A DNA stretch of 64,000 bases from Nitrospirota bacterium (lineage in GTDB: Bacteria > Nitrospirota > UBA9217). The stretch's first letter is position 1; every line of letters begins with the position of its first letter. Shown here piece after piece: positions 21,001 to 36,000 of the stretch. Position numbers: made by a program. The stretch is from assembly GCA_963754875.1 (NCBI GenBank), contig CAVWHO010000016.1, forward strand, positions 448,001-512,000, read 5' to 3'.

Positions 21001-24000
21001 AATGTTGTGCAAAATTCAGAAAGAAGTGAGCACTGAATCTTCCAACTGATACTCTTCACTTCATACGGCTACCGACGTTCCTCGTTTTCACCTACAAACT
21101 GTTAGAGTTATCACCTCAGGCAACTCCAACAATTCCGGTTGAAACATTGCATGTCATGATTACGACAAAACACACGACGATTAGACCGCCAAATCGTTTC
21201 CAGCCATCATCTTCTGGTGGGTGGCAAGATGATCGGTATGGATCATCCCGTACTGCGACTTCGGTTCATAAGGGATAAACGTCGTATCTATGGGGTCTTC
21301 CGAATGCAATAAACTCTTATGATGCCTAGCGTTTTTCAACACTTTTTTATAAGATCATATGTGATCTTCCCCCGAAAAAGTGGACACCTAGTTAAGTTTC
21401 TTTTAGACTCTTTTCGTACTGCTCCGGGCTCTTATATCCCAATCCCGAATGCTTCCTAGTGCGATTATAGAACACTTCCACATACTCAAAAATGCTTAAT
21501 CTCGCTTCTTCACGCGTTCGATACCGTTCACCGTGGACCAGCTCCCTTTTTAAGCGTGCTGAAGAACGACTCCATATAGGCATTATCATAGCAATTGCCT
21601 TTTCTGCTCATGCTCGGCGTTATGCCGTATCGCTTTAGGAGCGCCTGGTATCCATAACTCGCATATTGCCTGCCGCGATCAGAATGATGAATCAGACCCT
21701 CTGGCGGCTTCTCTCTCGTCACGGCCTGCTTTAGTGCTGCAGCTGCCAGTTCCTCCGTCAGCTGGTCTTTCATGGACAGCCCAATGATCTTTCGGGACTT
21801 CACACTCATGACCGCTGATACATAGAGCCATCCTTCGTTGGTCGGGACAAACGTGATATCAGATGCCCAGAGCGGACCTTTATAGCCGTCTTGAATCAGT
21901 AAATTGGCAGCCAACGAATAGTTATGCTTTGAATCGGTGGTCTTCTCGGAACCTCCTCTTCACTTCTGCCCGAATCCCGTTATCTTTCATGATCCTGGCG
22001 ATCCGGTTCTTTCCGCATCTGGTACCTTGCCTCACGGAGTTCCTCGGTTATCCGCGGGCTGCCGTAGACCCTTCTGTTCTTCTGGTGGATCTCTTGGATG
22101 CGATCCAGGAGCTGCTCATTCTCATTCCAGCGCTTGCCTGGTTTTCGCTTCCTCCACGCATAATAACCACTTCGAGAGACTCCCAATACTCTGCACATCA
22201 GCTTAAGCCGATAATACTTCGCGGTGCTTTTCAATGAACAGGTACTTTACCAGCTCCGTTTGGAAAAGACGCCCAAGGCTTTTTTTAAAATGTCCCGCTC
22301 TTCCTTGACGTCCTCCAATTCCTTCTGGAGGCGCTTCAACTCTGCGTCCTCAGGCTTTAAATTCCCTGTTACCCACAAAGGCTCCATCTCCCTCATCTCG
22401 TAAACAGTCCGCCTCCATTGATGCACTAGATTCGGATGAATGTCAAGATCACGGGCAACTTTCCTCACGGGAACACCTTTCTCCATCACTAGCTTAACTG
22501 CATTTCTTTTAAATTCTTGAGTGAATTGACGACGTTCGCTTTTTGCTCCCATAAGCGCCTCCTTTCTGATTTTACACCTATTCGAGGTGTCCATCAAATC
22601 GGGGGAGGCTTATATTGCGTAGTTGGGCTATTTAATCATTGATAACAGGGCAAGTCAAGCAGTTAGAAGACGAAGAAGAACAAGAGGACTCTAGACACTC
22701 ACCTCGTGGTGCCAGTTCAGCCAGGTGGAGAAACTCCCGCCGCCGAAGCGTAAGCAGATCGTGCAAATTCTCGATGCCTTCCTGGGAAGTGAAAAGATGA
22801 AGAAGAGCGGCTAAGGTGACTGTCGGGTTTCGCTGTGCTTAACCCGACTTGCCGGCCTGAGACCTCTATCGAACATACAATAAGAAACTGACCCCTAGCA
22901 AGCCCAAGCCACCAAAAATAATGCCAAATATACCACCTATATTTTTACGGCCAAAAACACCTAATGAGACGGCGATTATGAAAATTATCAGGAAAAACCA
23001 AAGAGAGTTCCACCATCTTGCTTCTTTTGCGGAAAAGCAAACTACAAACCACATTAAATTCGCGATAGCTAAGATGATGCTGGCACTTCCGCATTTTTTC
23101 TGCCATTGCGAAGAAACGATATTATCCATAGAGTATCTTTTATCTCCTTTCTCGACCCTACCAGTTTCCGGTTGCATGACTACACGCGCATTTTTCCCAT
23201 CGTTTCACAAGATCTGCATCACATTTCCATTCACAGGTAGTAGTACGCGTTGGGTTCCATCTACTTAACCAATCAACACCGCAGTCCTCATAACATTTGT
23301 CATGTTTTTTACAGGCAGAATCATAACAGTCTGTTGTTGGTCCAGAACCACCAGGACCGCACCAGTTGCCATGCCAGTTTAGCCCTTTAGGATCTTTCCT
23401 GTTCACGGGATTGTCGGCGGTATAATTATAATCAAAAAGATCCATGCCGATCCATACATTATCAGCACCATTCATATCAGGGTATCCATATTGTTTGTTT
23501 AGATACGACGAGATGTTCTTAAGATATATTTTTTTCATCAGGTAGAACTGCGTTAATAAGGGATCAAACTCAATATACTTGCCGATCACTGCGTTGTAGT
23601 CTCTCCACCAATTTTGATTCAGCCCCGTCTCTGCATCGAAGTACTGCCCCGGGAGCCTGAGATTATTGATGATCGTGCTGACTGTAATCGTCGTCTCCCC
23701 GTAAGGTTTATAGTCAGCAGACCAAACAACCGACCCGGAAAAGTCCGTCATCTTCTGCGGGGTGGCAAGATGATCGGTATGATAGTAATAGGTATTGCCA
23801 TTCGCTACCATCGCCAGCGGCTGTCCATTCAAGTATACATATTCCACATTGATTGTACCAGCACTATTTGACTCTGCTATGATCTGGCCACTCTGACTGT
23901 AATGGAAGACGGTTGCTGTGCCATTTACATTCTTTTTCACCCGCTGGCCGTTGCCATTGTAAGTGTAGTACGCCGTTGATCCGCCGTCGTTAACTTGAAT

Positions 24001-33000: not shown

Positions 33001-36000
33001 GTTAAAATTGCCTGACTGACTGCCGACATGTGCATCTGTGCTGAACGTCGCGCTACTGGATGCCGTCCCATTGTGGCCGTTACCCGAGGCATCCGTCCAG
33101 TCACCGTCCATGTGCCAAAGACCGACAAGACTCGGATCCTGAGCCCCCATTGCCAGTGAGGGCTCTGTAAGCCGCATAATAAATAACGACGCAACCAAAA
33201 GGGCAGAGATAAAAATCCAATTTTCTTTTAGCTGTCTGCTTTTGTATGCTTTGTCACGCAATCGATAAACGTTCATCTCGTTCCTCTCAAGCTATACGAA
33301 TTGGACAACCTAAGGTCAAGATCGTCATGAAAATTACTAGGTATCAAACAATTTTACATTGAAAGATTAAGCGTTACAGAGTCTGTACGCAGATGTAACA
33401 ACTATAATTTCCCAGTCGCCATCCATGCGTCAAAGACCCACGAGACTTGGATCTTGGACGGCAACAGCAGGTAATGGCGAGAGAAGCGGAAGAAGAATTA
33501 ACAGGATTAAAAGCGACATGGAAGACCAAAAGAAGTAATGAGGATTTCCATTAACAGTTTTGTCCCTTAGATAGAACATTTACATGTCCTTTTCCGTTGA
33601 AGCATTGGTTTCGTTTTTATACTAGAAAACCGAGTGAGGAGAGAAAGTGAAACTGTAGCGATACTTATTTGCTTGAATAAGCAGTATTCTGCAGCTAAAA
33701 ACTCATGCTCTGTGAATCATTTCCCGACTTTTGTTTGATGAGAGCGGGTAATTTTTAGCATTATATACAAAGAAAAGCAATCAGGGATTCCCTATATTTT
33801 GCTTCGTTTTTCCTGGGGGATACCAAACTCAAATTAAGGTCAATAAAAAATATCTAATCGACAGCGTTGACATATCCTAAAGATATCAAATGCTTAACTG
33901 AGTAAAATACTTTTCGTCTAGTGGATAAACCGAGGAACGGGGGGTGCTTAACCAATTTCTGGTAAAAACATTATTTTGTTTCCATATAGGTGTATTTTTT
34001 GTAAGACGATTTAATAAGGCGGGCTAGCTATTCTTAAGGGATGTCAAAAAAGTGTCGTGGTACTCGATGCAAATAAACAAATCCTTAAGATAAATTACAA
34101 TGAATACTACATGAAATATGCACTACCATTACGGTATCGCTCGTTGTAGACTACAGGAAGGACTTCTTGAGTTATTATGAATCGAAAAAATTACACATTC
34201 CTATTTGAATTTTTCTTCAAAAGCAAATGATACTGACTGTACTACAGCATTGAGTACCTTCCATTTAAAAAGTTTGTTCCGCACCTTCTATCATCGATGC
34301 CACAAGCGACGGTTCCGCGATAACTGGTCTGATAAAATCGAATGTCTTATCGATATTTCTATCCAAAAACTCTTCTTTGTCATTTAATCATACCCGTTGT
34401 AATGTCAAAAAAAAGGGCTGATCTCATTCGAAATCAGCCCTAAATCCAGCACAACTTTTTTGCAGCAAATTTACAAAACTAGTAAAAATATCCTTATTTT
34501 TCAACTACTTAACTGGTGGAGGCGGCGGGAATTGAACCCGCGTCCGAAAACCTTCAGCCGGAAGCTCATACATGCTTATCCCCTCGTTTTAAGCTCTCGC
34601 CTCATCCAGCGCCTTGGGGAAAGCTTTGGAATCGGCCAGCCCGGTTTATCTTATCCTCCCGCCCCGGACGAAGTCGGGAAGACCAGCCTGGTTTGTGACG
34701 TCTCTGCGACTGTTCAGGCGCCGGCCGCGAAACGCGCTGACTAGTTAATTAGGCAGCGAGTGCCAGTTCGTTATTGGCAGTTCTATTTTGCCATGTGTTT
34801 TACGAGCCCCATGGCACCTCGGCATGCAACTCCCAACCTCTGTATCCCCGTCGAAGCCTGTCGCCCCCCTTCTTTAAAAATAGTTCAAAGTTCAGGGTAC
34901 TGAGTTCATAGTAAAATCAACATCAAAGTCTCCGTTTTTCACTCTGAACTATGAACTGTGAACTCTGAACTAATATATACTACCTTATTCCTTCGGTGAA
35001 TTCAACAGCCGTTGTGCGGCCTCTTCATCAACACCAATTACCTTGATGATCTTTTCTCTTCCCGTATGTCCGGAAACGATTTCCACCTGCGACCGGCCTA
35101 CGTCAAATGCATCGGCAAGAAACTTCACCAGCGCCTCGTTGGCCGCGCCGTCGACCGGCGGGGCCGTGAGCCTGATCTTGAGCCTGCCGTCGTCCATTCT
35201 CGTGATCTCGTTTTTCGACGCCCGGGGCTGGATCCGTACCGAGAGCGAGACCGACGTTTCCTCCGTTTTATTCCGGGGCTGGCTCTTCTTTGGCTTCACC
35301 GGCTTCACCGCCTGTCCCCTCGATAATTGATCATTTCCAGGTGCATCTCGATCACCTTCTTCATGTCCTGGAGAAAGTGGTGCTTGCGGCGCTTCAGTTC
35401 CTCGATCTCCGTCTCGAGCTCGAAATTTCTCCTGCTGGGCATTGTTGATGATCTGGTGGCTGCGGATCTCGGCGTCCTTGATGACGAGATTCGCCTCCTT
35501 CCTGGCGCCGTTCTTCAGCTCATCGATCAGTTTCTGCGTCATCAGCATCGTGTTCTTGACGGTCTCTTCCTTCTCGGCGAGCTCGCGGAGCCGTCTGATC
35601 GTAGGACTGGCGGAACTCCCGCAGCTCCGTCATCTCCCGCACAAGCGACTCCATTTCATCCCGCACGAGATCGAGAAACATTTCGACTTCCGTACGGTCG
35701 TAACCCCGGAAACCGATATGAAACCGCTTCTGCTGGATGTCGAGCGGCGTGACCTTTATCCCGTTAGTCATGGTATTGCCTGCCTCCCCGGCCATTGGAC
35801 ATGGCCGATTGCCTACCCCATGGAGCGTCCGATGCGTAACAGCGTGTTGATCAAAGCTATTCTCAAAAACATAATTATGAGAAACGCAATGATCGGAGAA
35901 ATATCAATTCCAATTTTATATGGTGGGAAAAGCTTCCTGAGTGGCCGGAGTATCGGCTCCGTCAGCTTTTGTAAAATCTGAACAATGGGATTGTAAGGAT

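What a model noticed while it worked through the whole genome (the two positions that open the first line are those of the whole stretch)
23158..33276. Tripartite Sec-exported Rhs toxin system: FlgD-tipped giant adhesin, cysteine-rich small protein, signal-peptide Rhs
Two loci (C16:471158-481276 and C22:58881-72908) encode the same three-gene system: a giant surface protein with a variable body (LamG or fn3/beta-helix repeats) but a conserved ~310-aa C-terminal double FlgD-Ig module, a hypervariable disulfide-rich 130-260-aa secreted protein, and an Rhs polymorphic toxin that begins with a signal peptide instead of PAAR/VgrG. The genome has no VgrG, so this is a T6SS-independent delivery arrangement in a Gram-negative bacterium.
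Evidence so far: Gene order and N-terminal signal-like sequences read from calls 121 and 130. The Rhs N-terminus is found in 11 of 63 class genomes; all 10 relative loci cut out show the adhesin C-terminal module upstream, and 1-4 Cys-rich ORFs between. In metagenomes 42 of 46 loci with 2.5 kb upstream carry the adhesin C-module, and 20 of the 22 loci at 46% identity or more carry a separate Cys-rich ORF. FlgD_ig E 1e-15, two stretches; the C16 toxin tip matches phospholipase A2 (E 1.6e-6), the C22 tip differs and is followed by orphan Rhs modules. PF04717 (VgrG) not found in this genome. Homologs include Geotalea daltonii Rhs proteins. FlgD and cysteine-rich do not occur in the held main text of the polymor [...]
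(Added by a program. Inside this text positions count along the whole contig: contig position 448,001 is position 1 of the stretch shown here. "Call 12" and the like, gene names such as g00115 and contig names such as C1 are that model's own, and its searches are not shown. The text may have been shortened before it was handed on; [...] marks where a part breaks off. The agent that wrote the report below was given it as the finding of a first reader that could run no searches.)

Follow-up and report, generated by a model that had tools for sequence, protein, structure and literature searches.

The report
Adhesin-mounted Rhs toxin delivery system
These genes encode a boxed bacterial toxin that is exported without an injection needle and most likely clips onto the tail of a giant sugar-binding-type protein, which would then carry it to target cells; this pairing appears undescribed and recurs in several bacterial phyla.

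Summary
The three genes are real, at both loci. The Rhs has a signal-peptide-like start and no PAAR/VgrG, and the T6SS sheath gene was found in 0 of 64 class genomes.

New here: a complex model docks the adhesin's C-terminal module (three Ig domains, not two) on the Rhs (ipSAE 0.80, best control 0.00; mark reached by 116 of 157 solved and 2 of 215 mismatched pairs). The interface joins a conserved motif of the third domain to a family-specific Rhs insert noted beforehand.

The conserved core is adhesin + Rhs: 59 of 67 loci with enough flank carry the module. The Cys-rich gene marks only a Nitrospirota/Geobacteraceae clade. Elsewhere a TolB-like propeller, a FlgD-Ig protein and a TPR protein lie between. 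The Cys protein is a detached Rhs head: it is fused in some relatives, and 50 of 57 have a spare cysteine.

Best reading: a Sec/T2SS-exported polymorphic toxin particle in which a variable adhesin aims an Rhs-boxed toxin. Signal-peptide, T6SS-independent Rhs are already known (Bcn-A, myxobacterial Rhs, TLPs); a separate docking adhesin was not found in nine literature searches. Binding, export route and killing are untested.

The parts
27673..33276 (-). Giant adhesin, 1867 aa: signal-like start, six LamG (ConA-like) domains, Ig stalk, C-terminal docking module; no lipobox, no membrane anchor
27676..28665 (-). C-module (aa 1538-1867): three FlgD-like Ig domains, the second inserted in the first
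   Evidence: AF2 pLDDT 91.9, pTM 0.87; aligned ranges 1-221 and 219-330; alignment
27940..27981 (-). Docking motif of the third Ig domain (aa 1766-1779, DP..M..SYGEF); predicted contact with the Rhs
28501..28503 (-). Cys1592 of the first Ig domain; candidate partner for the spare Cys of the small protein (tentative)
   Evidence: column is Cys in 27 of 33 Cys-type loci, absent from the 29 other loci
27161..27619 (-). Cys-rich secreted protein, 152 aa, 19 Cys (odd); detached Rhs head domain
23158..27090 (-). Rhs polymorphic toxin, 1310 aa: signal peptide, one-Cys head, DUF6531 plug, YD shell, core, toxin tip
27022..27090 (-). Rhs signal peptide (basic start, hydrophobic core, AYA end)
   Evidence: sequence; hydropathy tally
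26719..26943 (-). DUF6531 plug (aa 50-124), with Cys118 inferred to bond the head Cys36; part of the predicted interface
26461..26532 (-). Family-specific insert in the Rhs shell (aa 187-210); main predicted docking loop
23158..23382 (-). Phospholipase A2-like toxin tip behind DPKG; Ca-loop-like CGPGG and His-Asp kept
22866..23129 (-). 87-aa protein with three hydrophobic helices; candidate immunity protein
   Evidence: no family
21528..22597 (-). IS3-type transposase pieces (not part of the system)
21181..21246 (-). Decayed orphan Rhs core (HTDHL..QKM)
   Evidence: 37-nt repeat, 92% to 23745-23781; translation
33412..33519 (-). Decayed earlier 5' end of a LamG adhesin (signal peptide plus first LamG residues, with a stop)
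34514..34868 (-). tmRNA gene; the low-GC island begins behind its 3' end

Best explanation
A polymorphic toxin system in which a separate adhesin carries an Rhs-boxed toxin.

(1) All chains enter the periplasm by Sec (signal-like starts shown; cleavage inferred). (2) They fold and form disulfides there. The short Rhs head is pinned to the DUF6531 plug by one bond (inferred from co-varying cysteines). (3) The third Ig domain of the adhesin tail grips the Rhs plug and insert (modelled, not measured). (4) The complex leaves through the type II secretion system (inferred). In this clade no anchor is visible, so it is released or held non-covalently. (5) The exchangeable adhesin body, here six LamG domains, binds a surface glycan and selects or concentrates targets (inferred). 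(6) The Rhs cuts off and releases its tip, here a phospholipase A2-like enzyme acting on membranes, and the downstream membrane protein protects kin (inferred from Rhs family knowledge). (7) The Cys-rich protein is a detached, hypervariable Rhs head that probably rejoins the particle through its spare cysteine as a second specificity or entry element (weakest step).

Step odds: direct adhesin-Rhs binding 0.8, T2SS exit 0.7, antibacterial role 0.75, Cys protein in the particle 0.5.
For: Complex model: 0.80 vs best of 3 controls 0.00, runs share at least 96% of contacts, partner pLDDT at least 82; the mark was reached by 116 of 157 solved and 2 of 215 mismatched pairs, counts holding only roughly with my alignments. 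No like complex is evident: best whole-module Foldseek TM 0.27. The interface falls on an insert flagged before the model was run (note). The insert profile scores 17.6-51.6 bits in 5 family Rhs (some close to model rows) and at most 6.0 in 21 other Rhs. The same 11 of 63 class genomes hold both genes, one of them with a broken module. 59 of 67 loci with at least 3.3 kb upstream carry the module. The full module lies at the C-terminus in 124 of 127 representatives. Adhesin bodies are swapped freely: LamG, fn3, beta-helix, RCC1, PPC. Tips differ; 7 of 40 match a Pfam family, including 3 PLA2, Tox-WTIP and DUF4329. GspD is over cut-off in 38 of 45 genomes, and G000 has a gsp operon on C11. TssC 0 of 64 and 9 of 44; PorV 0 of 1 and 1 of 44. 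Head parity tracks the plug Cys in 86 of 99 Rhs. Stand-alone Rhs carry Cys head, FlgD-Ig and DUF6531 in one chain (L046, L047).
Against: No experiment. The model used only Rhs residues 24-660, and paired alignments of related loci can inflate confidence. My own inter-chain covariation is weak: mean z 0.58 over 25 contact pairs, and 1 of the top 25 pairs lies in the interface. The C-module interface is no more conserved than the rest of domain 3 (0.50 vs 0.52). No adhesin-Rhs fusion was found. 8 of 67 loci lack the module. Four distant loci (L115-L118) keep adhesin, TolB-like and FlgD-Ig genes but lack the Rhs insert. GspD is common in Gram-negative bacteria and is never in the locus; no non-carrier baseline was run. 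No translocation part is evident, although some tips look like cytoplasm-acting enzymes. The lone adhesin Cys is absent or apparently paired at about a dozen loci whose Cys ORFs are still odd. 33 of 40 tips have no family, so toxicity is assumed.
Confidence: 0.62

Rival explanations
1. Cell-tethered contact weapon: the same complex, but the adhesin is a stalk fixed to the producer's surface that holds the Rhs out toward touching cells, as in CDI or teneurin-like proteins. The LamG domains may bind the producer's own surface or the biofilm matrix.
For: Dockerin-like N-termini in 5 of 6 tested non-Cys-type adhesins, 3 over the cut-off, and a cohesin gene in L116. Myxobacterial signal-peptide Rhs are thought to be surface-bound (PMC10433427, passages).
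Against: No lipobox or internal membrane helix in 17 of 17 adhesins. No barrel gene seen in the loci mapped. The C-terminus is occupied by the Rhs dock. Bcn-A activity is in the supernatant.
Confidence: 0.2
2. The C-module is a T9SS-like export or anchoring tail, and adhesin and Rhs are only co-inherited neighbours that do not bind.
For: Best structural match of domain 1 is the PorU C-terminal domain (6za2, Z 12.3, rmsd 1.9, 99 residues). CHU_C matches internal repeats of several adhesins.
Against: PorV 0 of 1 and 1 of 44. The complex model passes on family-specific motifs. The insert is restricted to adhesin-linked Rhs.
Confidence: 0.08
3. A self-recognition or adhesion device rather than a weapon: the shell displays or stores variable disulfide-rich peptides, as animal teneurins use the same shell for adhesion.
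For: 33 of 40 tips have no Pfam family and many are short and Cys-rich. Teneurin-like proteins are among the PDB matches.
Against: PLA2, Tox-WTIP, DUF4329 and DUF4258 tips; a different small gene behind each tip; orphan cores at both G000 loci.
Confidence: 0.07
4. Sub-question: the Cys ORFs are spare N-terminal cassettes, recombined onto the Rhs or left over from gene splitting, and do not act as separate proteins.
For: Fused heads exist (L043; 6 of 68 scored homologues). Up to five ORFs occur in tandem. 27 of 57 end in Gly-rich tails like the head-plug junction.
Against: Each has its own signal-like start, and the window's has a ribosome-binding site. No plug-coding remnant follows the window's stop codon. 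41 loci keep one beside an Rhs that already has its own head.
Confidence: 0.25

Closest known systems
Streptomyces umbrella toxin particles (UmbA/B/C; PMC11062931, abstract and section 7 read)
   Same: Secreted multi-protein particle; separate lectin-bearing chain; small third protein; polymorphic toxin; no injection machine.
   Different: Umbrella toxins use ALF repeats, a trypsin-like UmbA and a conserved adaptor, in Actinobacteria. Here there is an Rhs shell, a giant adhesin that binds directly through FlgD-like Ig, a hypervariable third protein, and diderm hosts.
Xanthomonas perforans Bcn-A (PMC7259588, passages read)
   Same: About 1400-aa Rhs toxin, active in supernatant, lost in a T2SS mutant, with a downstream immunity gene.
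   Different: Its accessory ORFs are 100-290 aa; no giant adhesin or FlgD-Ig dock appears in the passages seen.
Bacterial teneurin-like proteins (PMC13018210, passages read)
   Same: Signal peptide, variable adhesion domains, YD shell, polymorphic tip, immunity gene; delivery stated to be unknown.
   Different: One chain with FN-plug and NHL propeller. Here the adhesion part is a separate gene and the plug is DUF6531.
Myxococcus Rhs4/Rhs5 and Bacillus WapA (PMC10433427, passages read; WapA details recalled)
   Same: Signal-sequence Rhs/YD toxins that act without a T6SS.
   Different: Very large single chains (about 4000 aa for Rhs4/5); no separate carrier described.
T6SS Rhs effectors (8h8a, 7q97, 8cp6, 7pq5) and Tc toxin TcC (recalled)
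   Same: Same shell (best E 5e-58), toxin boxed behind a DPxG-type site, N-terminal end docked on a carrier.
   Different: The carrier is VgrG/PAAR, or TcB/TcA; there is no signal peptide and loading is cytoplasmic.
'T2SS/Sec-dependent' class of Zhang et al. 2012 (PMC3482391, passages from the first 300,000 of 357,715 characters)
   Same: Signal peptide plus RHS repeats plus variable toxin.
   Different: The table lists no signature neighbour genes for the class; FlgD, adhesin, cysteine-rich and Geobacter occur 0 times in the held text. Supplements not seen.

Membership tests
Rhs/YD polymorphic toxin | YD repeats, Rhs core, DPxG-type boundary | tested here: met
Rhs/YD polymorphic toxin | Variable C-terminal tips on a conserved body, orphan modules | tested here: met
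Rhs/YD polymorphic toxin | Cognate immunity gene directly downstream | tested here: inconclusive
   small membrane ORF in place; no family; protection not testable
Rhs/YD polymorphic toxin | Toxic activity of the tip | not testable with these tools
   PLA2 motifs kept, score under Pfam cut-off
T6SS Rhs effector | PAAR/VgrG-binding N-terminus, no signal peptide | tested here: not met
   no PAAR; signal-like start in 105 of 108
T6SS Rhs effector | T6SS encoded in the genome | tested here: not met
   TssC 0 of 64; PF04717 in 1 of the 11 carrier relatives, a 260-aa frame; G000 is 90% complete
T2SS-exported toxin (Bcn-A-like) | T2SS present | tested here: met
T2SS-exported toxin (Bcn-A-like) | Export depends on GspD | not testable with these tools
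   needs a mutant
Teneurin-like protein | FN-plug + NHL propeller + YD shell in one chain | tested here: not met
   1310 aa, DUF6531 at 50-124, no NHL match; TLP match only from residue 628 of the query
Umbrella toxin particle | ALF repeats and trypsin-like lectin carrier | tested here: not met
   neither family matched
Umbrella toxin particle | Works like it: separate lectin chain bound to the toxin chain | tested here: inconclusive
   model supports binding; glycan binding untested
T9SS cargo | Ig-like C-terminal domain fold | tested here: met
   PorU CTD Z 12.3, rmsd 1.9, 99 aligned
T9SS cargo | T9SS machinery (PorV, SprA) | tested here: not met
   PorV 0 of 1 and 1 of 44; the SprA search rang in no control and shows nothing
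Tc (ABC) toxin complex | TcA and TcB genes beside the Rhs | tested here: not met
   neighbours are adhesin and Cys ORF; not searched genome-wide

The most novel reading that the evidence does not exclude
An undescribed, multi-phylum delivery route for Rhs toxins: a diffusible particle assembled in the periplasm, in which an exchangeable lectin-like adhesin grips the Rhs shell through a flagellar-cap-like Ig domain. Three independently varying parts (adhesin body, disulfide-linked head, toxin tip) would give a combinatorial targeting code, a Gram-negative counterpart of umbrella toxins. The TolB-like/FlgD-Ig/TPR set and the Cys-rich heads would be interchangeable entry modules.
Probability: 0.45. 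Interest if true: 0.85.

Novelty: new variant of a known kind. Interest (0 to 1): 0.74.

Why it matters
How signal-peptide Rhs/YD toxins reach and choose targets without an injection machine is stated as open in a 2026 paper (PMC13018210). This system names a carrier, gives a residue-level interface to break, and has cultured hosts: Gilvimarinus algae has the full five-gene form (L080), and Geotalea daltonii FRC-32 has two Rhs homologues (neighbours not checked). It would also give a role to a class of giant 'hypothetical' adhesins and assign a protein-docking job to FlgD-like Ig tails in bacteria without type IX secretion. The tips are a pool of mostly unassigned, disulfide-rich candidate antibacterial domains.

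Tried and rejected
- T2SSK (PF03934) as a T2SS marker: rang in 10 of 14 controls, so it was discarded.
- SprA search: rang nowhere, uninformative.
- Fused adhesin-Rhs: none among 11 longer hits (at most 38% identity) or among 150 representatives. Both are weak negatives.
- Inter-chain mutual information: mostly phylogenetic noise; the frameshifted row L082 was dropped.
- Cys protein fold: pLDDT 71.9, pTM 0.40 from 9 rows; best Z 4.1, no assignment. Atlas best hit 0.77, chance level. No Pfam or NCBIfam family.
- Lipoprotein reading of the Cys proteins: lipobox pattern in 4 of 57, rejected as general.
- TolB-like or FlgD-Ig partner genes elsewhere in G000: no separate FlgD-Ig partner; three propeller hits, unlinked and not followed.
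- Promoter/terminator scan: chance level (20 vs 18.5; 10 vs 11.4). A hairpin between the Cys ORF and the Rhs is not relied on.
- Second copy of the tmRNA end: none in the window.
- RNA: no RNA holder listed.
- The careful tree did not finish; the quick tree is cited.
- Nine paper searches listed no description of this arrangement; only listings were seen except for the five papers named. Subscription journals and supplements were not covered.
- Earlier findings: nothing by sequence, place or full word set.

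
Full report
OBSERVATION. The window holds, on the minus strand, a 1867-aa protein (33276-27673), a 152-aa protein with 19 cysteines (27619-27161) and an Rhs protein ending at 23158. 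The Rhs most likely starts at the ATG at 27090, behind GGAGG, with a basic-hydrophobic-AYA leader. Pfam finds six LamG stretches and FlgD_ig in the first protein, nothing in the second, and DUF6531, RHS repeats, the RHS core and a sub-threshold phospholipase A2 match in the third. The tip keeps the CGxGG loop and His-Asp pair when aligned to solved PLA2 (best E 5.5e-4; their roles are recalled). An 87-aa three-helix membrane ORF follows, then IS3 pieces and a decayed orphan Rhs core. The block starts behind the tmRNA gene in low-GC DNA. The second locus on C22 has the same order, a 3100-aa fn3/InlB-B/beta-helix adhesin, a different tip and four more Rhs cores. The closest named relatives are Nitrospirota.

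NO T6SS, T2SS PRESENT. VgrG and TssC were not found in G000 (90% complete). TssC was found in 0 of 64 class genomes. PF04717 was found in 5 of 64, only one of them among the 11 relatives that carry the system. Among 44 genomes behind related loci, 9 have TssC and 1 has PorV. GspD passes the curated cut-off in 38 of 45, G000 included, and G000 has a gsp operon on C11. This makes T2SS the likely exit but does not show it: GspD is common, unlinked, and no non-carrier baseline was run. A hydrophobic leader precedes DUF6531 in 105 of 108 Rhs, against 172 of 473 background ORFs (a crude rule, not SignalP).

THE CORE IS ADHESIN PLUS RHS. Strong Rhs N-terminal matches occur in 11 of 63 class genomes. 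The C-module matches strongly in 10 of these and in pieces in the eleventh, and in no other. Scans of species genomes (45 loci) and metagenomes (best 80 of 82) gave 114 distinct scorable loci. Of 67 with at least 3.3 kb upstream, 59 carry the module and 8 do not. Between module and Rhs, the 77 loci with the module have Cys ORFs (41), TolB-like plus FlgD-Ig genes (21), FlgD-Ig only (2) or neither (13); the two sets never occur together. The second set is a PD40/TolB-like propeller of about 300 aa, a 350-410-aa protein with FlgD-Ig domains, and usually a TPR protein, all with signal-like starts. It occurs in records titled Gammaproteobacteria, Desulfocapsa/Desulfobulbia, Myxococcota and Gemmatimonadota, and in a more distant form in Thermoanaerobaculia and Scalinduaceae; in some loci it lies downstream of the Rhs. 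In a quick tree of 62 Rhs N-termini, all 32 Cys-type rows and one unclassified row form one branch (SH-aLRT 100; midpoint root). Adhesin bodies are interchangeable (LamG, fn3, InlB-B, beta-helix, RCC1, PPC, NIDO), and 33 of 40 tips have no Pfam family.

THE DOCK. The C-module folds confidently (pLDDT 91.9, pTM 0.87) into three Ig domains. Single domains match the PorU C-terminal domain (Z 12.3, rmsd 1.9, 99 residues) and FlgD (Z 9.4); no solved chain matches the whole. A full module is C-terminal in 124 of 127 representatives among the best 150, and none of the 150 has the Rhs N-terminus. The Rhs family has a roughly 25-residue insert after the plug, which I flagged before modelling. A profile of it scores 17.6-51.6 bits in 5 family members outside the model rows (some close to them) and at most 6.0 in 21 other Rhs. 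The complex of Rhs 24-660 with adhesin 1538-1867 scored 0.80 against a best control of 0.00; runs share at least 96% of contacts and partner pLDDT is at least 82. The mark was reached by 116 of 157 solved and 2 of 215 mismatched pairs, roughly applicable with my 62-row alignments. Contacts join Rhs plug and insert residues (chain 64-100, 164-186) to domain 3 residues 229-242 and 293-300. Both motifs are recognisable in all 62 paired loci. Against: my covariation test is weak (mean z 0.58; one interface pair, ranked fourth, among the top 25), the adhesin side is not more conserved than its surroundings, half the shell was missing, and four distant loci keep the gene set without the insert.

THE CYS PROTEIN. 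It is a detached Rhs head. In L043 a 19- or 21-Cys domain is fused to DUF6531 with one signal peptide, as in 6 of 68 scored homologues (6 of 74 lacked the motif used). Stand-alone Rhs of the class carry Cys head, FlgD-Ig domains and DUF6531 in one chain (L046, L047). Heads obey a parity rule: odd with the plug cysteine present (71), even with it absent (15), exceptions 7 and 6 of 99, several due to my cleavage guess or truncation. This points to a head-plug disulfide, Cys36-Cys118 here. The separate proteins are odd in 50 of 57 (automatic cleavage guess), so each has a spare cysteine. One candidate partner is Cys1592 of the adhesin, present in 27 of 33 Cys-type and none of 29 other modules. 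That is a single-clade trait, and odd proteins also occur without it. Homodimers, exchange with Cys118, or spare-cassette status remain open. Fold and family searches gave nothing.

TETHERED OR FREE. None of 17 adhesins has a lipobox or internal membrane helix. Five of 6 tested adhesins of the other subtype begin with dockerin-like sequence and one locus has a cohesin, so some versions may be surface-held.

MECHANISM. Sec entry, periplasmic folding and assembly, T2SS exit, adhesin-guided binding, release of the tip, immunity by the downstream gene. Shown: gene order, co-occurrence, leaders, absence of T6SS markers, polymorphism. Modelled: adhesin-Rhs binding. Inferred: everything else. How cytoplasm-acting tips would enter a target is unexplained.

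KNOWN SYSTEMS. Signal-peptide Rhs toxins are a class in Zhang 2012, with no signature neighbours (PMC3482391, passages). Bcn-A is a T2SS-dependent Rhs bacteriocin (PMC7259588, passages). Myxococcus Rhs4/5 have signal sequences and act without T6SS (PMC10433427, passages). Teneurin-like proteins join adhesion domains and shell in one chain, delivery unknown (PMC13018210, passages). Umbrella particles bind separate lectin chains to a polymorphic toxin (PMC11062931, abstract and section 7). The system is an Rhs polymorphic toxin that works like an umbrella particle or a split teneurin-like protein, but fails the defining tests for both. Nine searches listed no account of a separate FlgD-Ig-tailed carrier; subscription papers and supplements were not seen.

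VERDICT. Real and conserved; observation confirmed, interpretation partly right. New variant of a known kind, with a new delivery architecture and a testable interface. Interest 0.74.

Noticed in passing
window 17972-20812 (-): 946-aa protein with a short N-terminal domain, UvrD-like helicase and ankyrin repeats inside the tmRNA island; possibly a defence or conflict gene.
   Followed up: no
window 17230-17765 (-): DUF4258 gene (107 aa) and a 71-aa partner; looks like a toxin-antitoxin pair.
   Followed up: no
window 33412-33519 (-): Decayed copy of an adhesin 5' end just upstream of the live gene, suggesting N-terminal replacement of adhesin bodies.
   Followed up: partly
window 27125-27143 (-): Hairpin with a T-run between the Cys ORF and the Rhs; could lower Rhs output relative to the adhesin, but such sites are at chance level in the region.
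   Followed up: no
L032 3-1562, L034 320-1309, L043 6146-7096, L046 1129-2124, L177 10777-11475: A transposase-like gene (MARPLRI.../MPRK.RV... type, label recalled) follows many Rhs loci; a primase-like gene follows L032 and the C22 locus.
   Followed up: no
L046 3184-8106, L047 12826-17703, L048 13515-18161, L035 2114-6565: Stand-alone signal-peptide Rhs of the same class with Cys-rich heads, two with FlgD-Ig matches, and no docking insert: a single-chain sister family.
   Followed up: partly
L115, L116, L117, L118: A third subtype whose mature Rhs begins (Y/F)HFPWD, with PKD/FlgD adhesin, TolB-like and FlgD-Ig genes but neither docking motif; includes cultured Saccharospirillum impatiens.
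   Followed up: partly
L065 9888-10982, L117 4217-5883: A rhodanese-like protein and a ferric-reductase-like membrane protein (labels by eye) flank two distant loci; possibly linked to disulfide or sulfur handling.
   Followed up: no
L112 353-2531, L084 5747-6448, L119 1579-2736: The TolB-like/FlgD-Ig genes also occur without an adhesin module or Rhs in view.
   Followed up: no
G000 C7 108601-118085, C8 68969-75392, C17 27234-32307: Three more secretin clusters (MSHA-like, a second Gsp/Pul-like set, PilMNOPQ; labels by eye) that could also export the complex.
   Followed up: no
L089: A locus in a record titled as a halophilic archaeon, with a head nearly identical to that of a gammaproteobacterial locus (L068); probably a misbinned contig.
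   Followed up: no
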